This document shows, piece by piece, positions 31,798-45,820 of a stretch of DNA of 64,000 nucleotides. Numbering within the stretch: position 1 is the stretch's first letter; the number at the start of each line of letters is the position of its first letter. This DNA is from Anolis carolinensis (Eukaryota), in contig NC_085842.1 of the NCBI RefSeq assembly GCF_035594765.1, positions 303,475,749 to 303,539,748 of the forward strand, given 5' to 3'. The notes beneath the pieces were generated by a model. The model searched no databases, was not told the DNA's origin, and saw nothing but the letters and a program-made list of their open reading frames with translations. Position numbers and translations under genes: made by a program.

Positions 31798-32605
31798 GGA
31801 TCAGTAATGTCAAAGTATAATTCTCTATATTTCTCTGAAAGTTTAAATATTTGCAGTCTATCCATTCACTATATTTCTAATCTAAGCCGTTCTCTAACTT
31901 AAAATGCCCCAAATAATGAACAACCGTTGGAAGGATCAATAATGCCAAAGTATAATTCTCTGTATTTCTCTGTAAGTTTGAATATTTGCAGCCTTTCCAT
32001 TCATTATATTTCTAAACTAAAACATTCCCTAATTTAAAATACCTCAAATCATAAACAACTTTTGGATCAGTAATGCCAAAGCATAATTCTCTGTATTTCT
32101 CTGTAAGTTTGCATATTTGCAGCCTATCCATTCATTATATTTCTAATCTAAGCCGTTCCCTAATTTAAAATACCTCAAATTGTAAACAACTTTTGGAAGG
32201 ATCAATAATGCCAAATTATAATTCTCTGTATTCCTCTGGAAGTTTGAATATTTGCAGCCTATCCATTCACTATATTTCTAATCTAAGCCGTTCCCTAATT
32301 TAAAATACCTCAAATTGTAAACAACTTTTGGAAGGATTAATAATGCCAAATTATAATTCTCTGTATTTCTCTGGAAGTTTGAATATTTGCAGCCTATCCA
32401 TTCACTATATTTCTAATCTAAGCCGTTCCCTAATTTAAAATACCTCAAATTGTAAACAACTTTTGGAAGGATTAATAATGCCAAATTATAATTCTCTGTA
32501 TTTCTCTGGAAGTTTGAATATTTGCAGCCTATCCATTCACTATATTTCTAATCTAAGCCGTTCCCTAATTTAAAATGCCCCCAAATAGTAAACAACTGTT
32601 GGAAG
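31798..32605. repeat. Tandem repeat, 6 copies of ~135 bp
   Basis: Units start GGATCA(G/A)TAATG or GGATTAATAATG at 31798, 31933, 32064, 32199, 32334 and 32469. Confidence 0.95.
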
Positions 32606-32923
32606 CCAAGCCTGTTCTATATGTCTCTTTCCTACCTCATTGTCATGAGGGAACCTTATTTCTGGATTACTTGTCAATCAGCACAACCATTTATGTCCAG
32701 ATCAAGCATAAACACACCTTCCAGATACCTACCTTTGTTTTGCTAGAAGTGGTTTTCACTGCCTGTGACGCTTCAAGCCTTGCCAGTTTTGTTGGAAGAT
32801 TTTCCCTCCTTTTTTCTTCTCCTCAGCCAACATCCAGGTTAGTCCATTAAACTTCTGCACACAAAAAGTAATATATATTTACCTCAGGTTTAGCTGTTTT
32901 ATTTCCTAAACGCACACCTTACA

Positions 32924-33988
32924 TGTCAAGGACAGAACGCCACAAGATTCAAAGTAACAGAGTTTATTAGATTACAGAACTCAAAAATGCCCGTAAAACA
33001 CAAGGGCCAGGCAGTTTTTGCCTTTAGGAGCAAAAAGGGGCAAAAGTAAATGTTCAAAAGATAAACCGGATTAAACCGGAGTTTAATCCGGGTAAAAACA
33101 AACTGCTTGCGTCAGCCTGGGTATAAACGAAACGAAAGCCAAGGAACAAAAGATACAAAGAATGCAACTAATTGGCAGCAGATTCCTCTCTGCTGCCAAC
33201 ACTGTGCTTAGAGTAACTTGCGTCGCTCCCCCACACACACAGCAGACAGGATCTCCAACACGAGTAAAACAGCCAAGGATTGTAGCAGTTGAGTAGACCA
33301 GTTCCGTTCCGTAGATCAAAGCCAGAAGCAGACGTTTGTAGTTTTTCCAAGTCCAAGAAGGGGGGAAGACAAGCCGTGGTCAGTTCAGTCCGAGTTCTCA
33401 AAGCAGGAGATGGCGTCCGTCAAGAAGACGACGGAGGGTCAAGGTCACAGCACAGGAAAGCACACAAGTCTTCAGGGAAGCGTCCCACACACACACGGAT
33501 CCCAAGCGTTTGCCCAGATTACCCTGCCCAACGCAATTTGCAATTGCTCCCAAGCCCCATTTTATGCCAGTTACAAATCTTCATCACTGTCAGCTGTCCT
33601 CCTTAACCCGGGCGTTTCCTCATCACTTTCCTCGTCAGAGCTGGAACACCTCTGACTACGCCCAACAGCATCTCCAGCTGTGGATCCCGTCCCATCCCTC
33701 CAGCTAAACCATGGGTCTAATCCTGAAGGTCCCCATTCATCTTCTGTCCCATCATGGCCAGTGGCACCCACTTCCTCCCTTACCCGAGTCCAATCCATCT
33801 CATCCTCCTCTGAGCTAACCAGCCCCTCCTCCATTCTCTCCGTAAACCCTTCGAAAGACTCCTCGTCAGAAGGTGCTGCAAATATGTCTCGCAGTCTTTT
33901 TCTCTCTCGCTCCTCGAGAGTATCTGACTCTCGAGGAGTCTTACGCCCACGTCTGTCAGTAACAGAGCCATGAGGCTCAATCATAACA
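32924..33988 (-). repeat. 3' LTR of the Gypsy element (U3 ~33988-33535; TATA-like CATAAAA 33566-33560; AATAAA 32968-32963)
   Basis: Direct repeat of 38031-39095. Promoter and poly(A) motifs read on the minus strand; U3/R boundary inferred. Confidence 0.97.
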
Positions 33989-36900
33989 CTATCCCCTCTC
34001 ACAAAGGCCTCCTCCCCCGATGGCGGAGAAGTGGCAGTGATACCCTCCGCTATAGCACCACGACGACTAGAGGTATCAAGTTTCAACAGCGAACGATGAA
34101 AGACTGGATGGACCTTTAAACTAGACGGTAAACGCAAACGAAACGCAACAGAAGAAATCTTTTTAACAATAGGAAAGGGACCCAAATACCGAGGCGCAAA
34201 CTTTCCCCCAGCCTGTTTAATATGTTTGGAAGATAACCACACCAAATCCCCTTCTTCCAACTCCTCCCCTGCCTGCCTGTGGCGGTCAGCCTGAGTCTTC
34301 TGCGTTGCCTTAGCTTCCAACAGTAAGCGACGGGCAACATCATGCAATGCAGCCATTTCCGAAGAGCGGTACACAGGGTCCGAAGAGACCACATTGGTCG
34401 ACGGCGCCACACCTCCCCGTGGGTGAAAACCATAAGTTAGCTCAAATGGCGTATGCTGACTAGACGTGTGCACCGCATTGTTGTAAGCAAATTCCGCCAC
34501 CGGTAACCACTTTACCCAAGCCGTGGGTTGATCTAAACAAAAACAACGCAGATACTGCTCTAAGAGCCCATTAACCCGTTCCGACTGTCCATCCGTTTGC
34601 GGATGGAAAGCTGAAGACACGTTTAACTTAGTCCCCAAACACTCATGGAAGTGTTTCCAAAAGCGTGACACAAATTGCGGAGCCCTATCTGAAATAATCA
34701 CCTCGGGTGCTCCGTGCAAACGATAGATGTGCTTTGTAAATAGTAAGGCCAACGTAGGGGCCGCCGGAATGGTTGAACAAGGAATAAAATGAGCCAGTTT
34801 ACTAAATAAATCCACCACCACCCAAATACAAGTATAACCCCCAGACTTAGGCAAATCTGAAATAAAATCCATGGAAATGATTTGCCATGGCCTCTCCGGA
34901 ACAGGTAAAGACGATAACAACCCTCTAGGGCGCCCAACAGGCGTCTTACTCTGCTGACAAACGGCGCAGCTGTCACAAAAGCGCAGAATGTCTTGCCGCA
35001 TCTTTGGCCACCAGTAGCTCCTGGTGATAAGCTGTACGGTCTTGAACCTGCCAAAGTGCCCAGCCATGGGTTCGTCATGGTGGGCTCTAATCACCTCCAA
35101 CCTGAGGGTCCCTACTGGTACGTAAACCTGCCCCCTACGCACCAATACCCCGTCTTGATCCTGGAGATGCGGCAGTATGGTACGGTTACCTGCAGAGAGC
35201 AGCATCAGTTGCTCCTGAGTCCACACATCATCCTTCTGAGCCTCAAGGATCTGGTCATGTAACCCAAGCTCATTATCTACAACACACAGAGAGGCAGTAG
35301 GCAAGATGGTCTGACATACTACCTGCTCATTGGTCTTAAATTCCGGCTTGCGAGATAAAGCATCGGCCCGCAAGTTTGCCTTCCCCTCCACGAACTGCAC
35401 CTTGAAGTTAAACCTGGAGAAAAACAAAGCCCAGCGGATTTGACGCTGGTTTAACTTCTTTGCTGTTTGCAAGTGCTCTAAGTTCTTGTGATCAGATCTG
35501 ACCACGATCTGGTGCCGTGCCCCTTCAAGCCAGTGCCGCCACACCTCAAACGCCACCTTAATCGCCAACAACTCCTTCTCCCATATGGTATAGTTCTGCT
35601 CGAAGGGTGTTAGTTGCCGCGAGTAAAATCCACAGGGACGCAAGGTCCCTGAGGAATCCTTCTGAGACAATACAGCCCCCAACGCGTAGCTAGAAGCGTC
35701 CGCTTCTACCACGAACGGTCTGTCAACATCAGGATGGGTTAGTATGTTGTCCGATTGAAAACTAGACTTTAGTTGTAGAAACGCCTCGTGAGCTTCCCGC
35801 CCCCACACAAATGGCTGTTTCTTGCGCAGAAGCTGCGTCAAAGGTACCGTGAGCTTTGCAAAATTCGGAATAAACTCCCGGTAGTAGTTAGCGAAACCCA
35901 AGAACCTTTGTACATCCTTCTTAGTCTTCAGCTCCTGCCATGAGTTGACGGCGTCAACCTTATGTGGGTCCATTTTAAGTTCCCTACCTGACACTACATG
36001 ACCTAGGAACTCCACTTCAGGCACATGAAAGACGCACTTGGAAGCCTTGGCGAAAAGCCCATTAGCCCGCAGTCGGTGCAGAACCTGCTTGACATGTTGA
36101 CGATGTTCTTTCTCGTCCTTAGAAAAAATCAAGATATCATCCAAATAAATCACTAAAAATTGGTCAATTAGGTCCCTGAACACATCGTTCATGAACCTCT
36201 GGAATACCGCAGGAGCATTACAAAGCCCAAAAGGCATGACTCGGAACTCGTGGCATCCGAAACACGTGTTAAATGCCGTCTTCCATTCATCCCCTTCCCG
36301 TATACGGATTAAGTTATAGGCCCCCCGCAGGTCAAGCTTGGTAAAGACCTTAGCCCCTTGCACCCTTGATAACAGTTCCGAGATTAAAGGGAGCGGGTAC
36401 CTATCCCGAATGGTGTATTTGTTTAGGATCCGATAGTCACAGACCAGCCTAAGTTCCCCAGTCTTTTTGGCTACAAAGAATACTGGTGCCGCAGTTGGAG
36501 AACTAGATGGGCGAATAAACCCCTTGGCTAAATTTTCATCTAGAAACTCCCGCAAAGCTTGCCTTTCCGGTACAGTCAAGGCATACAGCCTCCCTGCTGG
36601 CAGTTTCGCACCTTCTGCCAACTTGATGGCGCAATCATATGGCCTGTGCGGTGGTAATTTGTCCGCTTCTCTTTTACAAAATACATCAGAGAACTCCCCA
36701 TACTCAGCAGGCACTCCCTCCATATCAGAATGAGTAACATTTAGAGTGCAACAATCCTGCCTCTTTAAGATCACTTTACGTGTTGCCCAATCTACTTGTG
36801 GGTTTACTACAGCTAGCCAATCCATCCCCAGGATCACATCATATCTAGGCAAGCTCGTAATATCCCACACAAACGTTCCCGTTACTCCCTGCACCTCCCA

Positions 36901-37188
36901 CGTTACTGCTGAGGTTTCATGGTTAACCACCCCAGTCTCCAGCAGTCTCCCATCTGCTCCTTCCACCCACACGTCGCATGCCTTGCGCACTCTAGGAATG
37001 CCATGCTTCTTAGCAAACTCAATATCTACATAGGAGACCGTAGCCCCTGAGTCCAGCAGTGCCAAAGTAGAAACAAGTTCCCTTCCCCCAACAGATAATG
37101 TAATGGGTACGAAAACATGCTTCCTCCCCTCAGTTGACTGCTTGAGGAGCCCTAGTGCGTTGGACTCACGTCGCACTAGGGCTGGCCT
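33571..37188 (-). CDS. pol: Gypsy Pol (protease, RT, RNase H, integrase with GPY/F module and acidic LTR-encoded tail), expressed by -1 frameshift from gag
   Basis: LLDSGAT protease; LDLRGAY, MPFGL and YLDD of RT; EADAS, EKELLA and SDHKNL of RNase H; HHCC plus D(MDF)-D(SDR)-E(SER) integrase; YLGPF...HPVFH.SLLK. The ORF continues 418 nt into the 3' LTR. Confidence 0.96.
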   Translation of the reverse strand, partial: RPALVRRESNALGLLKQSTEGRKHVFVPITLSVGGRELVSTLALLDSGATVSYVDIEFAKKHGIPRVRKACDVWVEGADGRLLETGVVNHETSAVTWEVQGVTGTFVWDITSLPRYDVILGMDWLAVVNPQVDWATRKVILKRQDCCTLNVTHSDMEGVPAEYGEFSDVFCKREADKLPPHRPYDCAIKLAEGAKLPAGRLYALTVPERQALREFLDENLAKGFIRPSSSPTAAPVFFVAKKTGELRLVCDYRILNKYTIRDRYPLPLISELLSRVQGAKVFTKLDLRGAYNLIRIREGDEWKTAFNTCFGCHEFRVMPFGLCNAPAVFQRFMNDVFRDLIDQFLVIYLDDILIFSKDEKEHRQHVKQVLHRLRANGLFAKASKCVFHVPEVEFLGHVVSGRELKMDPHKVDAVNSWQELKTKKDVQRFLGFANYYREFIPNFAKLTVPLTQLLRKKQPFVWGREAHEAFLQLKSSFQSDNILTHPDVDRPFVVEADASSYALGAVLSQKDSSGTLRPCGFYSRQLTPFEQNYTIWEKELLAIKVAFEVWRHWLEGARHQIVVRSDHKNLEHLQTAKKLNQRQIRWALFFSRFNFKVQFVEGKANLRADALSRKPEFKTNEQVVCQTILPTASLCVVDNELGLHDQILEAQKDDVWTQEQLMLLSAGNRTILPHLQDQDGVLVRRGQVYVPVGTLRLEVIRAHHDEPMAGHFGRFKTVQLITRSYWWPKMRQDILRFCDSCAVCQQSKTPVGRPRGLLSSLPVPERPWQIISMDFISDLPKSGGYTCIWVVVDLFSKLAHFIPCSTIPAAPTLALLFTKHIYRLHGAPEVIISDRAPQFVSRFWKHFHECLGTKLNVSSAFHPQTDGQSERVNGLLEQYLRCFCLDQPTAWVKWLPVAEFAYNNAVHTSSQHTPFELTYGFHPRGGVAPSTNVVSSDPVYRSSEMAALHDVARRLLLEAKATQKTQADRHRQAGEELEEGDLVWLSSKHIKQAGGKFAPRYLGPFPIVKKISSVAFRLRLPSSLKVHPVFHRSLLKLDTSSRRGAIAEGITATSPPSGEEAFVRGDSVMIEPHGSVTDRRGRKTPRESDTLEERERKRLRDIFAAPSDEESFEGFTERMEEGLVSSEEDEMDWTRVREEVGATGHDGTEDEWGPSGLDPWFSWRDGTGSTAGDAVGRSQRCSSSDEESDEETPGLRRTADSDEDL
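33989..34000 (-). promoter_or_regulatory. Polypurine tract (PPT)
   Basis: GAGAGGGGATAG immediately precedes the TG of the 3' LTR. Confidence 0.85.
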
Positions 37189-37194
37189 TTTCCC
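37148..37194 (-). promoter_or_regulatory. -1 ribosomal frameshift signal: slippery G GGA AAA plus 12-bp stem-loop
   Basis: GGGAAAA at 37194-37188 is in gag phase, and a -1 shift enters the pol frame (AGG CCA GCC CTA GTG). Perfect stem AGCCCTAGTGCG/CGCACTAGGGCT at 37183-37172 and 37159-37148. Confidence 0.88.
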
Positions 37195-37976
37195 GAAAGC
37201 TGGGAAGGTTTCACATTACAATTTTTGGCAAAATGCCCAGCATTCCCACAGTACAAACACAAGCCCAGCTGCCTCCTACGGCTCTTTTCCTCTGTAGACA
37301 GCTTTTTAAAGACCCCAAGCTCCATGGGCTCTTCCCCCATCACCACAGGTGCCCTGGTTACATGCATGGGTGGCGCACACATTGCTTTTGAGTGTTTACG
37401 AGCCTCGAACCTTGCGTCTAAACGCAGCACCTTAGCTACTAAGGCGTCCCAGCTTTCAGCCGGCTTCAAGCGTGCTAATTCATCCTGGAGCATATCACTT
37501 AACCCGGCAGTAAATAAAAGCATGAATGCATTTTCCCCCCAATCCAGCTGGTGGCGATACAGGTTAAACTTATTTAAGTAATCCAAAACAGTCCCCTTTC
37601 CCTGTTTCAACCGATACAGAGCCCACCCAGCGTTCTCCGTGCGGAGAGGATCCCCAAAAGTATCAGTTAACAACTTTTTGAAATTATTCAAATTGTCCTT
37701 GACTGGGTCATTTCCCAAAATTAAATTAGTGGCCCATTGTCCTGCGGGACCGGTCAACAAACTCAAAATAAAGGCCACCTTGCTAGTGTCTGTAGGAAAA
37801 GCATGAACACTGAGCTGGGAAAAATAAAGCTCCACTTGTGCCAAAAAGGTTGGCAACTTGCACCTGGTTCCGTCAAAGCGTTCAGGAGTCAAAACATGTC
37901 CTTTCACAGCCTGAGCTGTTTGGCTAACGGTAAAAGCCGTTTGCAATTGGTCTACTTTGGCCCTTAACTCATCCAT
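37176..37976 (-). CDS. gag: Gypsy Gag, 266 aa (capsid-like domain plus CCHC zinc knuckle)
   Basis: PERFDG...FL.Q motif, PMELG, and CLYCGNAGHFAKNC (CX2CX4HX4C). Resembles sushi/PEG10-type Gag. Confidence 0.96.
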   Translation of the reverse strand: MDELRAKVDQLQTAFTVSQTAQAVKGHVLTPERFDGTRCKLPTFLAQVELYFSQLSVHAFPTDTSKVAFILSLLTGPAGQWATNLILGNDPVKDNLNNFKKLLTDTFGDPLRTENAGWALYRLKQGKGTVLDYLNKFNLYRHQLDWGENAFMLLFTAGLSDMLQDELARLKPAESWDALVAKVLRLDARFEARKHSKAMCAPPMHVTRAPVVMGEEPMELGVFKKLSTEEKSRRRQLGLCLYCGNAGHFAKNCNVKPSQLSGKGQP

Positions 37977-38017
37977 CGTCTTCCTGACGGGTTTATTGCT
38001 GCAATAAACTTTTTATG

Positions 38018-38030
38018 GCGTTGGGCAATC
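38018..38030 (-). promoter_or_regulatory. Non-tRNA (self-priming) primer binding site
   Basis: GATTGCCCAACGC follows the 5' LTR and lacks the TGG of a tRNA PBS. It is complementary over 10 nt to GCGTTGGGCA at 38641-38632, which starts 32 nt after the first base of the TATA-like box. Confidence 0.8.
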
Positions 38031-39095
38031 TGTCAAGGACAGAACGCCACAAGATTCAAAGTAACAGAGTTTATTAGATTACAGAACTCAAAAATGCCCG
38101 TAAAACACAAGGGCCAGGCAGTTTTTGCCTTTAGGAGCAAAAAGGGGCAAAAGTAAATGTTCAAAAGATAAACCGGATTAAACCGGAGTTTAATCCGGGT
38201 AAAAACAAACTGCTTGCGTCAGCCTGGGTATAAACGAAACGAAAGCCAAGGAACAAAAGATACAAAGAATGCAACTAATTGGCAGCAGATTCCTCTCTGC
38301 TGCCAACACTGTGCTTAGAGTAACTTGCGTCGCTCCCCCACACACACAGCAGACAGGATCTCCAACACGAGTAAAACAGCCAAGGATTGTAGCAGTTGAG
38401 TAGACCAGTTCCGTTCCGTAGATCAAAGCCAGAAGCAGACGTTTGTAGTTTTTCCAAGTCCAAGAAGGGGGGAAGACAAGCCGTGGTCAGTTCAGTCCGA
38501 GTTCTCAAAGCAGGAGATGGCGTCCGTCAAGAAGACGACGGAGGGTCAAGGTCACAGCACAGGAAAGCACACAAGTCTTCAGGGAAGCGTCCCACACACA
38601 CACGGATCCCAAGCGTTTGCCCAGATTACCCTGCCCAACGCAATTTGCAATTGCTCCCAAGCCCCATTTTATGCCAGTTACAAATCTTCATCACTGTCAG
38701 CTGTCCTCCTTAACCCGGGCGTTTCCTCATCACTTTCCTCGTCAGAGCTGGAACACCTCTGACTACGCCCAACAGCATCTCCAGCTGTGGATCCCGTCCC
38801 ATCCCTCCAGCTAAACCATGGGTCTAATCCTGAAGGTCCCCATTCATCTTCTGTCCCATCATGGCCAGTGGCACCCACTTCCTCCCTTACCCGAGTCCAA
38901 TCCATCTCATCCTCCTCTGAGCTAACCAGCCCCTCCTCCATTCTCTCCGTAAACCCTTCGAAAGACTCCTCGTCAGAAGGTGCTGCAAATATGTCTCGCA
39001 GTCTTTTTCTCTCTCGCTCCTCGAGAGTATCTGACTCTCGAGGAGTCTTACGCCCACGTCTGTCAGTAACAGAGCCATGAGGCTCAATCATAACA
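38031..39095 (-). repeat. 5' LTR of the Gypsy element
   Basis: Minus strand begins TGTTATGA and ends CTTGACA. ORF translations are identical to those in 32924-33988. Confidence 0.97.
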
Positions 39096-39524
39096 TTACA
39101 GGATTGAGGAAGGGGCTGTGAATTTATTTGGACAATTTAAGTTGTAATAATCACTTAATTTATTGATAGGCTGAAGGGACGAATGGAGCAGTCCAATCCA
39201 GTTTTCTCCTCAGCTTCAAAAATGCTGAAGTGAACCTTTGTTTCCTCTGTGTGTCACCGTATCAACCGGGGGCCATTTTCCTCAAGCAGGCTGTACTTTG
39301 TCAGACATATTAATAATATTTAGATCTAAATACTAAATTATATGTGTGTGTGTGTGAGTGTAACAATTGATGTCAGGATTTGAGGCCTAATTCTGTGCTT
39401 GATGACTGAAAAATAATGCCTCTTTATATAATGGGCCTAGCTAAGGATGCAATCCAACAGATGCTTGTTTGTGAATATTGAGTTAATGACACTTTATATC
39501 TTTGTAGATAATTATTTTAGGGAG

Positions 39525-40565: not shown

Positions 40566-43418
40566 TCAGGAGAGGCAAGATGAGAGTACTGATCTTGCAA
40601 AGGCCGAGTCTTTAAGGGCCTTACTGTCCAGCCTGTAGTGAGAGACAAACGTGAGAGGGTTTGACCAGATAGCCGCTTTACATATGGAGTCAAGCGGAAT
40701 ACCCCTAAGGAAGGCGGTCGACGCCGAGAGGCCCCTAGTCGACCTCGGGCGGATGGAAGGAGGGGGAGGTCGCTTGGCTAGTTCATAGGCCAACTCAATG
40801 GCCTGAGCGATCCAGTGGGACAGTCTTTGGGAAGAGATGGGATTACCCAACTTGTCCTGGGCATAGGCGACAAAGAGTCTTTGTGACTTACGAATGTCCT
40901 TAGTACGGTCCCTGTAGAAAAGAAGTGCTCTCCGAACGTCGAGAAGGTGCAGTTTTTGCTCGAGAGGAGAGGAGGGGTTAGAGAAGAAAGCTGGTAAGAC
41001 AATGTCCTGGTTGAGGTGGAAGGCTGACACCACCTTAGGAAGAAAGGTAATGTCCGGGCGAAGAACAGCGCGGTCATGGTGGAAACGAAGATAAGGCTCG
41101 TCGACTCTGAGGGCAGCGAGCTCGGATGGCCGTCGTGCCGACGTGATCGCCACCAGAAAGGCCAACTTCCAGGAGAGCAGGCGTAGATCGGTCGAGGCAA
41201 GCGGTTCGAAGGGAGCAGAAGACAGTTGAGAAAGTACAAGTTCGAGGCTCCAGCCCGGCGTAGGTGGTAGCGACGGCGGGCAGATGTTATTGTAGCCCCG
41301 GAGAAAGGTTTTGATCAGGTGGTGAGAAAAAAGAGATGGCTGGCCGTGGCGCTGAAAGGACCAGGAAAGAGCTGCGAGATAAGCTTTTATAGAGGCAAGA
41401 GAAAGTTTCTTCTCGACGAGAGTCATGAGGAAGTCGAGGACCACCGATACCGAGGTCGGGAAGGTGTCGACGTTACGGGATCGAAGGAAGGCATGAAAGC
41501 GAGAGAGTTTGTAGGAATAAGCCTTGGTAGTAGACGGCTTATGGGCTGCCCGCAGGACGTCTTGCAGATTCTGCGGAAGAGAGGCTAGGTAAGAATCCTC
41601 CATGCAGTGAGATGAAGGGAAGAAAGGTCCGGGTGAAGAATTTTGCCGTCCTCCCGTGAGAGAAGGTGCGGCGAGAGAGGCAGAGGGTGAAACGATCCTC
41701 TGGAGAGGCGAAGAAGGGCTGGATACCACGGTTGGCGGGGCCAGGCCGGAGCTATGAGAATCGCCGTGACCGAGATCGAGAGAAGTTTTTCGAGAACTTT
41801 CGGTATGAGGGGAATCGGTGGAAAAAGATAAAGCATCTCCGCCGACCAGTCCAGAAGAAAGGCATCCCCTAGGCAGCCGGGGAAAGAGTTCGGGGGGAGC
41901 CTCGCTCCGTAGCGGGGTAGCTGAGCGTTGTGGGGAGACGCGAAGAGATCCAGAGTAGGGCGCCCCCAGAGGCGGAACAGACCGTCGAGGACCTCGGGAT
42001 TGAGCTTCCATTCGTGAGAGGAAGAAGTCATCCTGCTGAGGGCATCCGCTAAACCGTTTTGGGCGCCCGGTAGGTGGATTGCAGAGATCTGTACGCCGTG
42101 GGCTATGCACCAAATCCAGAGACGAGAGGAGAGGAGCATCAGTTTCCTCGAACCCGTACCACCCTGTTTGTTGATGTAGAATACTGCTACTAGATTGTCC
42201 GATTGAATGAGGATGGACTTGTGGCGGATGAGGGGGGAGAATGCTTTTAGGGCTTTGAGAATGGCGAGAAGTTCGAGGAAGTTTATGTGGTTGGCCCTCT
42301 CTGACGGGGACCAAAGATTTTGAACCGTTAGACCGTTCATGTGGGCTCCCCAAGCGTAGGTGGAGGAGTCTGTGGTTATGGTTAGCGATGGCGGGGCTGG
42401 ATGGAAAGGAAGGCCCTTGCACACGTTTTGGTGAGACATCCACCATGAGAGAGACTGGCGGACGGACGACGGTACCGACAGGTATCTGGAGTTGTGGTGG
42501 TGGAACGGTTTGAAAGTGTCTATAAACCACCTTTGCAGGGTCCGAAGGCGCAGCCTGGCAAACGGGGTCGTGAGAACCGTGGAGGCCATGTGGCCTAGAA
42601 GGACCTGAATGACACGGGCTCTGACCCTCCGGGCAGATCGACAAAGGGCGATATGGTGGCGGAGAGCCAGGAATCTGTCGAACGGAAGTGACACAGTCTC
42701 TGCGACGGAGTCGAAGAGGGCCCCGATGAACCGGATTCGGGTTGACGGGGAGAGATTTGACTTCTCGGAATTGAGTTGGAGGCCGAGAGATTTTAGAAGA
42801 CGCAGCGTGAAAGAGACGTGATTTTGGAGAAGAACCGGGTCGGGCCCGACGAGAAGCCAGTCGTCCAGATAAGGAAAGACCGTGATGGCATGTAGCCTGA
42901 GGTGGGCCGCTACGGCGGCGACAACCTTGGTGAAGACCCTCGGGGCCGTGACGAGACCGAAGGGCAAAACGGTAAACTGGTAGGTTTGGTCGAGAACTTT
43001 GAAGCATAGGAACCGTCTGTGCGCCTCTCGTATTGCCACGTGGAAGTAGGCGTCTCGTAAGTCTATGGAGGCAAAGTAGTCTCCCCGCTGCAGCATCGGG
43101 AGGATAGAGGCAATAGAGACCATCCTGAATTTGGAGGGGCGAATGAATATATTGAGTGCCCTTAAGTCCAGAATCGGGCGTAGCCCGCCTCCTCTTTTCG
43201 GGACTGTAAAGTATCTGGAGAAGAAACTTAAAGGGTCCAGTTCGGGAGGGGAGGGACGGATAGCGCCTTTGGCCAGTAGCGCTTCGACTTCGGCCAGTAT
43301 CTCTGGGGAAGGATTTGAGTGGAGAACGTGACCTGTAGGAGGGAGGTCCATGAACTCTAAGGCGTAGCCGTCTTGGACAATGCGGAGAACCCATGCATCT
43401 GAAGTAATAGAGTCCCAT
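40566..43418 (-). CDS. DIRS tyrosine recombinase ORF (recognisable YR domain ~40566-41590; N-terminal part overlaps pol)
   Basis: SAM-like N domain (STTKAY...FL..L...SIKAYLAAL), ITSARRPSEL, LDVRRAL, RSTR, AAIWS, FVSHYRLD. Confidence 0.92.
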   Translation of the reverse strand: MGLYYFRCMGSPHCPRRLRLRVHGPPSYRSRSPLKSFPRDTGRSRSATGQRRYPSLPSRTGPFKFLLQILYSPEKRRRATPDSGLKGTQYIHSPLQIQDGLYCLYPPDAAAGRLLCLHRLTRRLLPRGNTRGAQTVPMLQSSRPNLPVYRFALRSRHGPEGLHQGCRRRSGPPQATCHHGLSLSGRLASRRARPGSSPKSRLFHAASSKISRPPTQFREVKSLPVNPNPVHRGPLRLRRRDCVTSVRQIPGSPPPYRPLSICPEGQSPCHSGPSRPHGLHGSHDPVCQAAPSDPAKVVYRHFQTVPPPQLQIPVGTVVRPPVSLMVDVSPKRVQGPSFPSSPAIANHNHRLLHLRLGSPHERSNGSKSLVPVREGQPHKLPRTSRHSQSPKSILPPHPPQVHPHSIGQSSSSILHQQTGWYGFEETDAPLLSSLDLVHSPRRTDLCNPPTGRPKRFSGCPQQDDFFLSRMEAQSRGPRRSVPPLGAPYSGSLRVSPQRSATPLRSEAPPELFPRLPRGCLSSGLVGGDALSFSTDSPHTESSRKTSLDLGHGDSHSSGLAPPTVVSSPSSPLQRIVSPSASLAAPSLTGGRQNSSPGPFFPSSHCMEDSYLASLPQNLQDVLRAAHKPSTTKAYSYKLSRFHAFLRSRNVDTFPTSVSVVLDFLMTLVEKKLSLASIKAYLAALSWSFQRHGQPSLFSHHLIKTFLRGYNNICPPSLPPTPGWSLELVLSQLSSAPFEPLASTDLRLLSWKLAFLVAITSARRPSELAALRVDEPYLRFHHDRAVLRPDITFLPKVVSAFHLNQDIVLPAFFSNPSSPLEQKLHLLDVRRALLFYRDRTKDIRKSQRLFVAYAQDKLGNPISSQRLSHWIAQAIELAYELAKRPPPPSIRPRSTRGLSASTAFLRGIPLDSICKAAIWSNPLTFVSHYRLDSKALKDSAFARSVLSSCLS

Positions 43419-43822
43419 TGATTGTAGAAAGGGGCTAGTCGGTCTGCAAAGACACCGAAGGGACGAGGCAGCGTGGGCTCTACAACGGTAGCGGGCGAGG
43501 AGCTTTGGCAGGGGTTGGCGTCAGGTACGCCGATTAGGCTGCGGAGGAGCAGGGGTGGATCGACCGCGTTGCTTTTGCGGATGAGGTCCCCGGCGAGGTT
43601 GGTGATGGGCTTGATTGTTCGAGCCCGAAGGCCGCCTGAAAGAATGGTGTCTGAAAGATTGCGGCGGGAAACGGCGGGAACGGTGCGGGAACCAGCGAGT
43701 GCGCTGAGGTTGAGGTTGGTCGCCACATTTAGACGCAAGAATTTTAAAGTCATGATTAGACTTGAGTTTGTCATCGGTACCGGCGTGAAACAGTCCGAGC
43801 GCGTCAAAGGGAAGGTCCTCAA
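41585..43822 (-). CDS. DIRS Pol: reverse transcriptase, RNase H and DNA methyltransferase-like domain
   Basis: RPILDLR, IDLRDAYFH, LPFGL, YLDDWL; RNase H TDSS, HINFLEL, SDN, ADALSR; C-terminal DLFAS...YLFPP...APAWPRQPWY. The true start or mode of expression is uncertain. Confidence 0.95.
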   Translation of the reverse strand: MRTFPLTRSDCFTPVPMTNSSLIMTLKFLRLNVATNLNLSALAGSRTVPAVSRRNLSDTILSGGLRARTIKPITNLAGDLIRKSNAVDPPLLLRSLIGVPDANPCQSSSPATVVEPTLPRPFGVFADRLAPFYNQWDSITSDAWVLRIVQDGYALEFMDLPPTGHVLHSNPSPEILAEVEALLAKGAIRPSPPELDPLSFFSRYFTVPKRGGGLRPILDLRALNIFIRPSKFRMVSIASILPMLQRGDYFASIDLRDAYFHVAIREAHRRFLCFKVLDQTYQFTVLPFGLVTAPRVFTKVVAAVAAHLRLHAITVFPYLDDWLLVGPDPVLLQNHVSFTLRLLKSLGLQLNSEKSNLSPSTRIRFIGALFDSVAETVSLPFDRFLALRHHIALCRSARRVRARVIQVLLGHMASTVLTTPFARLRLRTLQRWFIDTFKPFHHHNSRYLSVPSSVRQSLSWWMSHQNVCKGLPFHPAPPSLTITTDSSTYAWGAHMNGLTVQNLWSPSERANHINFLELLAILKALKAFSPLIRHKSILIQSDNLVAVFYINKQGGTGSRKLMLLSSRLWIWCIAHGVQISAIHLPGAQNGLADALSRMTSSSHEWKLNPEVLDGLFRLWGRPTLDLFASPHNAQLPRYGARLPPNSFPGCLGDAFLLDWSAEMLYLFPPIPLIPKVLEKLLSISVTAILIAPAWPRQPWYPALLRLSRGSFHPLPLSPHLLSREDGKILHPDLSSLHLTAWRILT

Positions 43823-45623
43823 TGACCTGTCTGGAAGATGAGGAGAGACCCGAAGACCTCAGCCAGGCGTGGCGGCGAATGGAAATCGCGTGGGCAATCA
43901 TTTTACCCGCAGTATCACCTGTATGCTTCGCCATTTGTATTTGGTGGTGAGCGAGCGAGTCTGCCTCCTGTTGGAGGGTAGTGAGGACGGAGCGGTCTTC
44001 GTCCGACATCTTAGCGAAGAAGGGCTGTGCCTTCTCCCAGATAATTTGTTGGTAGGCACCCATGCAGGCTCCATAATTCGCCATGCGGCAAAGCAAAAGG
44101 GCTCCGGAATAAAGTTTTCGACCCACGGCGTCGAAGCGCTTCCCCTCTCTGTCGGCCGGAGTATTCGACTGACGACCTGAGGATTGAGAGGCCTTAACGA
44201 CCAGGGAGTTAGGGTCGGGATGGTGTTTGAGCCACTCCAGGGTATCATCGTCGGTACGGTACCAAGTCTCGATCCTCTTCGAGGTCGGAGGAATGGAGGA
44301 AGGGTTTTTCCAGGAGGCCTGGATAACGTCCAACAGATAAGGCAGAAAGGGGAGTAGCGTGGCCGGCGGAGCTTGGGCCTGCACCCTTTTGAAGACTGGG
44401 TCAGACACTGCTTTGGAGGTTTGCTTGATCTCCAAACCCAGGGCGTCGGCCATCCTGACCATTTGTTCAGCGAAAGCACGAACATTGTCAGTAGGAGAAG
44501 GCGGGTCCGCCTCATACGCGTCGTGGGGAGGAGAGAGGTCGAGACCGAGAGAGACCACCGAGGCCGAGAGGACAGAGTCTGGGCGGTCGACATCAACATC
44601 TTCCTCCTCAGCCCCTTGGGGGGACTGAGGGGGAGAAGACAGCACAGTCTCGGGAGGAGGCAAGGCCTCGCGGGAAGAGAGGGCCGGAGGCCGAAGGTCC
44701 TTAGAGGCTGAGGCCTGGGCTGCCCGAGCCAGGCGAGCCGTTTGTCTGCCACGCTCCGGTGTCGAGGTGGGAGGGAAGAGCTGTTGGCGCGACGAGCGAG
44801 GCGGCGCAAGGGGCTCCGGCACCGGCACCCTGACCACCGTTTGGGTAGAGTGGTGGGGTGAGTCCTGCAGCTCCCCATCAGACAGGGGGTGCAATGGAGA
44901 CTGAGAAACATCTCTAGGCCTCTGGGCTGGTACAATAGGAGAAGACCTTCTCGAGGAAGTTGTCGAGGAAGATGGCGGGTCTTTCTTTGAGGAGGCCGAG
45001 GAGGAGGAGCGCTGAGTTAGCCGTTTCTTCGCCGGCGGTTGCTTGGATGCAACCCTCAAGGACTTGCCAGGTGTGGGAGGAACCACAGCTGAGTCGGATT
45101 GCGCTCGACGAGACTCCTCGTGAGCCCTTTTAAAGGCTATTTTGATAGCAGAGGAGGACGGAGGGGAACCGATACGAGAGCGGATCGAGGTCACCGAAGC
45201 CAGAGAGCTCGACGTCGAGGAAGGTCCCACCTTTCCGGAGCGGGTCGACACGGTCGCCGTCGTTACAGTACACGGTGGTTTGACCGGTTTAGCGGCCCTG
45301 GAGGTCTTGGACGCTCTGGACGAGACCGAGGAAGCCTTGGCTGCCGGAGGCTTAGTTGGTGGCGCCGACATAGCTCTCAAAGCTGAGGACGCCGACGTAC
45401 CCGACGTCGACGGAGTCGGTTCTGGCGCGAGAGATTTTTCGTAGAGCGCCGCTCTAAGCCTAGCGGCTCTGTTCTTTCTGGCCTGAGCCGTGAGAGCTAG
45501 GCAAAAACGGCAGGTACTGACCACATGAGCCTCGCCAAGACAGAAGAGGCACTTGGCGTGGCCGTCCGAGTCAGGAATTTTAGCAGCACACTGCGTGCAA
45601 CGCTTGAAACGAGTAGTAGACAT
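43521..45623 (-). CDS. DIRS Gag-like protein, 700 aa (N-terminal Cys/His finger, S/P-rich linker, LAP2alpha-like C-terminal domain)
   Basis: CTQC...HAKCLFC...H...CRFC at the N-terminus; RRHAWL and DLPF...LF motifs typical of vertebrate DIRS ORF1. Confidence 0.9.
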   Translation of the reverse strand: MSTTRFKRCTQCAAKIPDSDGHAKCLFCLGEAHVVSTCRFCLALTAQARKNRAARLRAALYEKSLAPEPTPSTSGTSASSALRAMSAPPTKPPAAKASSVSSRASKTSRAAKPVKPPCTVTTATVSTRSGKVGPSSTSSSLASVTSIRSRIGSPPSSSAIKIAFKRAHEESRRAQSDSAVVPPTPGKSLRVASKQPPAKKRLTQRSSSSASSKKDPPSSSTTSSRRSSPIVPAQRPRDVSQSPLHPLSDGELQDSPHHSTQTVVRVPVPEPLAPPRSSRQQLFPPTSTPERGRQTARLARAAQASASKDLRPPALSSREALPPPETVLSSPPQSPQGAEEEDVDVDRPDSVLSASVVSLGLDLSPPHDAYEADPPSPTDNVRAFAEQMVRMADALGLEIKQTSKAVSDPVFKRVQAQAPPATLLPFLPYLLDVIQASWKNPSSIPPTSKRIETWYRTDDDTLEWLKHHPDPNSLVVKASQSSGRQSNTPADREGKRFDAVGRKLYSGALLLCRMANYGACMGAYQQIIWEKAQPFFAKMSDEDRSVLTTLQQEADSLAHHQIQMAKHTGDTAGKMIAHAISIRRHAWLRSSGLSSSSRQVIEDLPFDALGLFHAGTDDKLKSNHDFKILASKCGDQPQPQRTRWFPHRSRRFPPQSFRHHSFRRPSGSNNQAHHQPRRGPHPQKQRGRSTPAPPQPNRRT

Positions 45624-45820
45624 GCGAAGAGTCCGAAGTGAACCTTGCGGCGGAAAAAAAGGAACTGGAGAGCGGGCGCCTGGGGCTGCCTTATATGCCC
45701 CTTGGGAAGGGGGGCGTGGTTACCGCCAAAAATTTGAACTTCAGCTTGGAAGAGTTTCCGTCGGAACCTGCGCAGGCGCAGCTTCTCCATTAGTGTGCAT
45801 TCACAGAGTACACGAAGAAA

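What the first reader, a model, noticed from the sequence alone, without database searches (positions are those of the whole stretch)
33571..34080. Chromodomain absent: pol reads through the PPT and nearly all of U3, giving a ~170-aa acidic tail
Seen: no chromodomain follows the GPY/F module (...HPVFHRSLLK). The ORF crosses the PPT and att site and runs 418 nt into the 3' LTR, stopping at 33571, just before the TATA-like box at 33566. The tail is low-complexity and acidic, with CK2-like clusters (SSEEDE, SSSDEESDEE, DSDEDL) and spaced Trp motifs (EMDW, DEWG, DPWFSW). Established: sushi-type chromoviruses usually place a targeting chromodomain here, and coding U3 regions are known from retroviruses (HIV nef, MMTV sag). 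Inference: one targeting module was replaced by a tail of short linear motifs, and U3 is under dual coding and promoter constraint.
Basis: partly seen in the sequence, partly recalled or inferred. Interest (0 to 1): 0.8.

Follow-up and report, generated by a model that had tools for sequence, protein, structure and literature searches.

The report
Lizard retrotransposon mimics LEDGF-binding motif
A young, abundant lizard jumping gene lacks the usual chromodomain, and its integrase reading frame runs on into its terminal repeat to encode a conserved tail with a near-copy of the short motif that host proteins use to grip LEDGF, the chromatin tether that HIV exploits, so it likely uses the same tether to reach active genes.

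Summary
Observation confirmed. An intact sushi-type gypsy element (identical 1065-bp LTRs) has no chromodomain, and pol runs 418 nt into the 3' LTR. The U3 frame is under purifying selection across three subfamilies: dN/dS 0.16-0.22, no indels in 418 nt against 13-41 in the rest of the LTR. The 'replacement' idea needs correcting: a chromodomain-bearing family of the same genome also reads 296 nt into its LTR under selection, and plant CRM elements are a published precedent. At 33844-33894 the tail holds a hydrophobic-acidic-FxGF motif, 11 of 17 identical to the host's JPO2/CDCA7L-type motif. A 26-aa peptide, chosen after I recalled the motif, hits one PDB sequence only: the LEDGF IBD-JPO2 complex (E 0.038). 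Complex prediction gave weak support (0.54, best control 0.02), possibly from memory of that structure. Related motifs follow the chromodomain in other reptile elements. Best reading: integrase is tethered to LEDGF/HRP2 and so to transcribed chromatin, convergent with lentiviruses. Binding and insertion bias are untested. I found no such report in print; this scan had not noted the motif on other DNA.

The parts
38031..39095 (-). 5' LTR, 1065 bp, identical to the 3' LTR
38018..38027 (-). [quoted passage not shown]
   Evidence: pairs with 38641-38632 in MFE and centroid folds; self-priming in Tf1/sushi elements from PMC6317226 passages
37176..38012 (-). gag ORF (capsid, CCHC knuckle)
37188..37194 (-). 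GGGAAAA in the gag/pol overlap, likely -1 frameshift site (mechanism recalled, not tested)
33571..37215 (-). pol ORF: protease, RT, RNase H, integrase, SH3/GPY-F, tail; no chromodomain
34081..34251 (-). SH3_Tf2-1 (GPY/F) module
   Evidence: aa 989-1045, E 1.6e-16
33571..34080 (-). 169-aa acidic tail of pol plus stop codon
33989..34000 (-). Polypurine tract, translated in frame; synonymous change is suppressed around it
32924..33988 (-). 3' LTR; its first 418 nt are coding
33931..33954 (-). Basic patch RRGRKTPR, followed by RKRLR at 33903-33889: possible nuclear localisation signal (recalled pattern, untested)
33844..33894 (-). TND-interacting-like motif LRDIFAAPSDEESFEGF (hydrophobic segment, acidic linker with an S-x-x-E site, FxGF), close to JPO2/CDCA7L motif 1
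33790..33816 (-). Acidic cluster plus Trp (SSEEDEMDW), largely kept between subfamilies; partner unknown
   Evidence: no meaningful PDB hit
33649..33702 (-). 18-aa block unchanged at the protein level in three subfamilies despite synonymous changes; function unknown
   Evidence: no PDB hit
33560..33566 (-). TATA-like box CATAAAA directly after the stop, kept in three subfamilies
33525..33534 (-). Likely start of R (self-primer sequence)
   Evidence: inferred
32963..32968 (-). AATAAA close to the LTR end
   Evidence: this position is typical of Sushi LTRs, PMC3601003 passage
32919..32923 (-). Target-site duplication TGTAA (also 39096-39100)

Best explanation
This sushi-type gypsy family lacks the chromodomain and translates most of its U3 as a conserved tail of pol that carries a JPO2-like acidic-FxGF motif, which likely binds the integrase-binding domain of host LEDGF/p75 or HRP2 and would tether the integration complex to transcribed, H3K36-methylated chromatin. 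Shown: anatomy, family-wide open frame, purifying selection, motif similarity, and that the host encodes LEDGF. Inferred: (1) the tail stays on the mature integrase after proteolysis; (2) the motif's hydrophobic segment and FxGF fill the two pockets of the TND, with CK2 phosphorylation of the SDEE serine raising affinity as in JPO2; (3) the PWWP domain of LEDGF/HRP2 brings the complex to gene bodies or simply to open chromatin; (4) read-through into U3 is older than the loss of the chromodomain and gave the raw material, since U3 is present at the 3' end of the genomic RNA and is copied to both LTRs. My odds: the motif binds LEDGF/HRP2, about 0.65; it also steers integration, about 0.45.
For: Motif: the 26-aa peptide 33826-33903 matches 1 of 177,635 PDB sequences at E<=10, 6EMO LEDGF IBD-JPO2 M1 (E 0.038, 12 of 20 identical). 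The host's own exon upstream of a zf-4CXXC_R1 domain matches the same chain (E 1.7e-4) and is 11 of 17 identical to the element's motif. Score against the host motif is 59; 0 of 3000 tail shuffles reach it (max 32); the best of the other window positions in six frames (127,900 scored) is 23. The pattern [DE]x[DE]xFxGF arises in 0.075% of 100,000 tail shuffles. The motif has the three parts listed in PMC9987994 (parts 1-2 of 6 and passages read), which states that FxGF is found in all known LEDGF/HRP2 TND partners. Conservation: 36 of 37 subfamily B/C copies keep the pattern; within the 16 motif codons dN/dS is 0.05-0.07 where it can be computed (few sites). Independent lineage: chromodomain-bearing reptile elements carry one or two acidic-FxGF motifs after the chromodomain (P0005, P0019, P0030, P0314), one of them with the same DEESFEGF. 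A strict pattern hit 7 of 87 tree rows, all within one 16-row clade, and 0 of the other 71 (these are two lineages, not seven events). Complex prediction of host IBD (P0166, 401-490) with 40 tail residues: weak support, 0.54 against best control 0.02; runs agree in at least 56% of contacts, partner pLDDT at least 56.
Against: No binding or insertion data. The PDB hit is marginal and post hoc: I cut the peptide after recalling the motif, and the whole tail did not find 6EMO. The two-motif stretch of P0314 found nothing in the PDB. The complex score is in the band reached by only 5 of 78 solved complexes and by all 4 mismatches that passed (of 180); the mark as such was reached by 51 of 78 solved and 2 of 108 mismatched pairs; peptides and disordered chains are untested, and the pass may come from memory of 6EMO. 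The likeness to JPO2 is lower in subfamilies C (51) and B (46). The abundant chromodomain family of the same genome has only a degenerate acidic-LGF, so the motif is not needed by every relative. The whole tail, not only the motif, is conserved (dN/dS 0.18-0.27 without it), so other functions exist. The motif sits before the likely PPT in the lacertid-type elements but inside U3 here, and they are not sisters in the tree. A TND partner could serve nuclear retention or stability rather than site choice.
Confidence: 0.55

Rival explanations
1. The motif does bind a TND protein, but not to choose insertion sites: it holds integrase or the whole pol product on chromatin, protects it from degradation, or binds another TND factor (IWS1, TFIIS, PNUTS) to help expression or nuclear access.
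For: TIMs bind many TND proteins (PMC9987994). In flies the FxGF partner JIL-1 is unstable without its LEDGF-like partner (10.1101/624023 passages). No insertion bias could be shown. Motifs coexist with chromodomains, which are thought to aim at the opposite chromatin.
Against: The review ties FxGF specifically to the H3K36me readers LEDGF and HRP2, whose known role for integrases is tethering and site bias. The motif stands where relatives have the targeting domain.
Confidence: 0.22
2. The tail is a selected but generic acidic, disordered extension (nucleic-acid or histone chaperone, solubility, nuclear import), and the JPO2 likeness is coincidence in an acidic sequence.
For: Acidic tails without FxGF follow the chromodomain in several relatives (P0003, P0006, P0020, the Anolis chromodomain family), and that family's tail is under similar selection (0.23-0.31). 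A plain FxGF arises in 1.2% of tail shuffles.
Against: 0 of 3000 composition-preserving shuffles come near the JPO2 score; both phenylalanines and the glycine are kept in 37 of 37 listed B/C copies; similar motifs recur, doubled, in a second lineage.
Confidence: 0.17
3. One reading: the chromodomain was swapped for a newly recruited U3 tail, and U3 is under strong dual coding and promoter constraint.
For: Chromodomain absent, U3 frame selected, stop fixed just before the TATA-like box in three subfamilies. dS in U3 is below dS in the integrase core (0.74 against 1.27; 0.43 against 0.67; 0.50 against 0.87).
Against: Read-through with selection also occurs where the chromodomain is kept. In that family dS in U3 is higher than in the core. 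Synonymous suppression is confined to the PPT/att zone.
Confidence: 0.06

Closest known systems
Tf1/sushi-group (V-clade) chromoviruses of vertebrates
   Same: gag-pol order, SH3/GPY-F module, PBS complementary to the LTR (self-priming), AATAAA near the LTR end; sits in a clade of chromodomain-bearing reptile elements.
   Different: No chromodomain; 138 codons of tail are encoded in U3 and hold an FxGF motif.
Plant CRM group A centromeric retrotransposons (CR motif), PMC3059260, passages read
   Same: [quoted passage not shown]
   Different: CRM uses a tRNA-Met primer and is centromeric; the CR motif's partner was not known in that paper; no likeness of sequence tested or claimed. Here the motif points to a named euchromatic reader.
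TND-interacting motifs (IBM/TIM) of JPO2/CDCA7L, IWS1, MLL1; PDB 6EMO; PMC9987994 (parts 1-2 of 6 and passages read)
   Same: Hydrophobic segment, acidic S/T-containing linker, FxGF; 12 of 20 identical to JPO2 M1 in 6EMO, 11 of 17 to the host's motif; tandem motifs in relatives as in JPO2.
   Different: Encoded by a mobile element, in an LTR; binding not measured.
Lentiviral integrase tethering by LEDGF/p75 and HRP2
   Same: Predicted host tether and predicted bias to transcribed genes (PMC9987994 'Viral mimicry' passage).
   Different: HIV integrase uses a structurally prearranged site, not an unstructured motif (PMC10854676 passage); this element would copy the cellular motif itself. PogZ is a listed LEDGF partner; that it derives from a transposase is recalled.

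Membership tests
Tf1/sushi-group Ty3/gypsy LTR retrotransposon | LTRs with TG..CA and TSD; PR-RT-RH-IN order | tested here: met
Tf1/sushi-group Ty3/gypsy LTR retrotransposon | Self-priming PBS complementary to the transcript 5' end | tested here: met
   10-bp pairing in fold; start site itself not mapped
Tf1/sushi-group Ty3/gypsy LTR retrotransposon | Phylogenetic placement with named V-clade references (Sushi-ichi, Amn) | tested here: inconclusive
   Quick IN tree groups it with chromodomain-bearing reptile elements (SH-aLRT 96, long branch), but no named reference element was in the tree
Chromovirus in the structural sense | Chromodomain at the integrase C-terminus | tested here: not met
TND-interacting motif (LEDGF/HRP2 type) | FxGF | tested here: met
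   FEGF at 33855-33844; kept in 30 of 30 and 37 of 37 listed copies
TND-interacting motif (LEDGF/HRP2 type) | Acidic linker with S/T open to CK2 | tested here: met
   AAPSDEES between the phenylalanines, S-x-x-E at tail residue 71; phosphorylation itself not tested
TND-interacting motif (LEDGF/HRP2 type) | Upstream helix with hydrophobic anchor | tested here: inconclusive
   Hydrophobic residues align with JPO2 M1; no interface was returned by the prediction
TND-interacting motif (LEDGF/HRP2 type) | Measured binding to a TND | not testable with these tools
   Prediction only, weak support 0.54 against 0.02
LEDGF-tethered integration (lentivirus-like) | Insertions enriched in transcribed gene bodies | tested here: inconclusive
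   No gene annotation on hand; proxies do not decide
Plant CRM group A | CR motif, tRNA-Met PBS, centromeric location | tested here: not met
   PBS is self-complementary; copies are spread along all large contigs; CR-motif likeness itself not tested

The most novel reading that the evidence does not exclude
Reptile chromovirus-type retrotransposons hijack the LEDGF/HRP2 tether by copying (or once capturing) the JPO2/CDCA7L linear motif. Some lineages carry it beside the chromodomain; this family dropped the chromodomain and relies on the motif encoded in U3, switching from heterochromatin reading to HIV-like targeting of active genes. It would be the first retrotransposon, and the first integrase of any kind that I could find, to use a true FxGF motif for LEDGF tethering, and the genome holds hundreds of young insertions of both types for a direct comparison.
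Probability: 0.4. Interest if true: 0.88.

Novelty: new variant of a known kind. Interest (0 to 1): 0.72.

Why it matters
How vertebrate LTR retrotransposons choose insertion sites is largely open (own knowledge). LEDGF tethering is described as a lentiviral trait. A JPO2-like motif on a gypsy integrase frame names a host partner, a binding surface and a kinase switch, all testable with a 17-residue peptide. The genome offers a natural experiment: a motif-bearing family without chromodomain and a chromodomain family, both with many young copies. It also shows that U3 of these elements is a long-lived protein-coding space in which targeting motifs can arise, in parallel with plant CRM elements.

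Tried and rejected
Private read-through or assembly artefact: rejected. Hidden or frameshifted chromodomain: none. Whole tail against PDB: one chance hit, E 0.96; two other tail segments: nothing meaningful. Tail homologues outside this family: none among 14 hits or the best 150 of 12,558 representatives, where only P0015 and P0016 matched the tail fully. Recent capture of the motif from the host gene: DNA identity 27 of 51, 9 of 11 shared residues use other codons, local DNA score not above shuffles; because synonymous sites are near saturation and the protein likeness runs a few residues past the motif, an old capture is not excluded. Insertion bias: copies on contigs C7-C19 (assumed to be the small chromosomes) 9 of 190 against 5 of 240 for the chromodomain family, hand counts without removing duplicates, Fisher p 0.17; flanks of 47 against 18 copies: GC p 0.067, CpG o/e 0.20 against 0.35 p 0.026, repeat cover p 0.19, three uncorrected tests on short flanks: not decisive. 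One search gave 150 tied hits and was not used for distribution. No Pfam match in 102 of 102 stop-free stretches of 72 aa or more elsewhere in the window, so I cannot say whether this copy lies in a gene. Expression: no RNA holder listed; four runs laid were contigs of unrecorded type; no conclusion. The protein atlas gave no answer. The careful tree did not finish; the quick tree is used, and rows with under 190 residues before the GPY/F end (among them P0019, P0020) were left out. The primary motif papers were not held, so the definition rests on a review. Literature searches that found no report of an FxGF/TIM motif on a retrotransposon integrase (listings and abstract starts only): LEDGF+FxGF+retrotransposon, Gypsy+integrase+LEDGF+chromodomain+vertebrate, Anolis+Gypsy+chromovirus, retrotransposon+integrase+TND-interacting+H3K36me3, FxGF+transposase+LEDGF, CDCA7L+retrotransposon+integrase, 0 papers. 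Subscription journals and repeat-database entries are not covered.
Full report
Anatomy. The finding lies at the 3' end of an intact LTR retrotransposon on the minus strand. The LTRs (38031-39095, 32924-33988) are 1065 bp and identical, with TG..CA ends and a TGTAA duplication. gag (37176-38012) overlaps pol (33571-37215, 1214 aa). Pfam finds protease, RT, RNase H, integrase zinc finger and core, and SH3_Tf2-1 ending at aa 1045, and no chromodomain. A chromodomain taken from a sister family finds nothing in six frames of the region. The remaining 169 aa cross the polypurine tract (34000-33989) and run 418 nt into the LTR. Proteins 89-99% identical over this region are labelled Anolis carolinensis.

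U3 boundary. The sequence right after the 5' LTR pairs with LTR bases 38641-38632 in both the MFE and the centroid fold. Self-priming is described for Tf1/sushi elements (PMC6317226 passages), so the transcript likely starts there, about 30 nt after CATAAAA. The ORF thus covers about 92% of U3 and stops five bases before the TATA-like box, a layout kept in three subfamilies. The start site is inferred, not mapped.

The frame is family-wide and selected. The first look of a DNA search found 2107 candidates, of which 40 were scored; 30 of the 30 fetched, this copy included, keep frame, stop and motif, but they are 99-100% identical. Two diverged subfamilies (B: L055, L068; C: L110, L116) are the better test. 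In five pairwise comparisons of natural copies dN/dS is 0.16-0.22 in the 138 U3 codons and 0.03-0.04 in the integrase core; for window against L055, differences fall 24/13/53 on codon positions 1/2/3. In four DNA alignments the coding 418 nt have no indel, and the LTR after the stop has 13-41. 35 of 37 B/C copies stop at the same place (picked by protein similarity). Synonymous change drops clearly only around the PPT and att site; in the rest of U3, 38 of 92 codons differ against 149 of 280 in the core. Dual constraint is therefore real but local.

Read-through is not tied to chromodomain loss. A large chromodomain-bearing family of the same genome continues past its PPT (30 of 30 listed copies, 27 with the full tail). 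A 5'/3' LTR pair shows 296 coding nt inside the LTR, with dN/dS 0.23-0.31 in four comparisons. Other reptile elements have Pfam-confirmed chromodomains followed by long tails; for them the LTR overlap is inferred from the protein only. In a quick integrase tree of 87 rows the family is a long branch beside 12 rows, most with a chromodomain (16-row clade, SH-aLRT 96), so loss in this family is the simplest reading. Plant CRM group A elements, whose CR motif is encoded in the 3' LTR, are the published parallel (PMC3059260, passages).

The motif. The tail reads LRDIFAAPSDEESFEGF at 33894-33844. I recalled the LEDGF-binding pattern and then tested it. A 26-aa peptide matched 1 of 177,635 PDB sequences at E<=10: 6EMO, LEDGF/p75 IBD-JPO2 M1 (E 0.038, 12 of 20 identical). 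The whole tail had not found it, and the peptide was cut after the idea. In the host genome an exon upstream of a zf-4CXXC_R1 domain reads LADVFNAPSDDEDFFGF and matches the same chain at E 1.7e-4; I take it to be CDCA7L/JPO2. It is 11 of 17 identical to the element's motif. Against it the tail scores 59; 0 of 3000 shuffles reach that (max 32), other window positions reach 23, and among 166 stored retroelement proteins the next best after this family are P0314 and P0313 at 30 and 28. A review (PMC9987994; parts 1-2 of 6 and passages) defines TND-interacting motifs as helix, acidic linker and optional FxGF, says FxGF is present in all known LEDGF/HRP2 partners, that CK2 phosphorylation of the linker raises affinity, and that lentiviral integrases hijack these domains to integrate in active genes. 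The host encodes LEDGF. A predicted complex of its IBD with 40 tail residues gave weak support: 0.54 against a best control of 0.02, at least 56% shared contacts, partner pLDDT at least 56. The mark was reached by 51 of 78 solved and 2 of 108 mismatched pairs, but at 0.60 or under by only 5 of 78 solved and by all 4 passing mismatches (of 180); peptides are untested and memory of 6EMO is possible.

A second lineage. P0005, P0019 and P0314 carry two acidic-FxGF-like motifs after an intact chromodomain, P0030 one; P0314 has the same DEESFEGF. A strict pattern hit 7 of 87 tree rows, all in the 16-row clade, and none of the other 71; these are two lineages. They are not sisters, the motif's place relative to the PPT differs, and the P0314 stretch gave no PDB hit. 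One old origin with losses and repeated mimicry both remain open. DNA shows no trace of recent capture from the host exon, but cannot exclude an old one.

Mechanism. Shown: layout, selection, motif likeness, presence of the host partner. Inferred: the tail stays on integrase, the motif binds LEDGF or HRP2, phosphorylation tunes it, and the PWWP reader brings the complex to transcribed chromatin. I put binding at about 0.65 and targeting at about 0.45. The main rival is binding for retention or stability without site choice; a generic acidic tail is less likely given the shuffle controls. My proxies for insertion bias did not decide, and no expression evidence could be drawn.

Novelty. The element is a Tf1/sushi-type gypsy, not a chromovirus in the structural sense. 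An LTR-encoded integrase tail is known from plants. An FxGF motif on a retrotransposon integrase frame was not found in six searches (listings only, open-access library), and the word FxGF occurred in no earlier finding of this scan (no look-alike by sequence or place).

Noticed in passing
window 40566-45719 (-): A second, apparently intact element with three long overlapping ORFs: RT/RNase H (41585-43858), a recombinase-like ORF with weak Phage_int_SAM hits, and a 732-aa ORF without Pfam match; likely a DIRS-type element (name recalled).
   Followed up: partly
L155 and L161; L080-L109: An abundant chromodomain-bearing family also codes 296 nt of its LTR as a selected tail (dN/dS 0.23-0.31, in-frame 5-codon indel), with a degenerate acidic-LGF and a basic end; 27 of 30 listed copies have the full tail.
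   Followed up: yes
P0005, P0019, P0313, P0314, P0030, P0089: A second lineage (three labelled Podarcis muralis, others unnamed) has one or two acidic-FxGF motifs between chromodomain and the likely PPT; P0089 has an FxGF after a decayed chromodomain that Pfam no longer finds. DNA not examined.
   Followed up: partly
L031:1474-2049: An intronless, stop-containing copy of the LEDGF IBD region, likely a processed pseudogene.
   Followed up: no
P0016, P0299-P0301: Host gene models that include sequence of this family, among them an 'opioid growth factor receptor-like protein 1 isoform' clustering with P0001; P0016 ends in the U3 tail. The in-frame ATG near the LTR start could let solo LTRs add the motif to host transcripts; may be annotation artefact.
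   Followed up: no
window 33524 / 38631: This copy differs from 26 of 29 close copies at the base next to the self-primer, where the others extend the pairing with the PBS by one Watson-Crick pair.
   Followed up: no
flanks of 47 family copies: Weak target-site preference: T at the third base after the duplication in 31 of 47 flanks (set not fully cleaned).
   Followed up: no
window 31798-32605: Six-copy 135-bp tandem repeat 320 bp from the element's 3' end.
   Followed up: no
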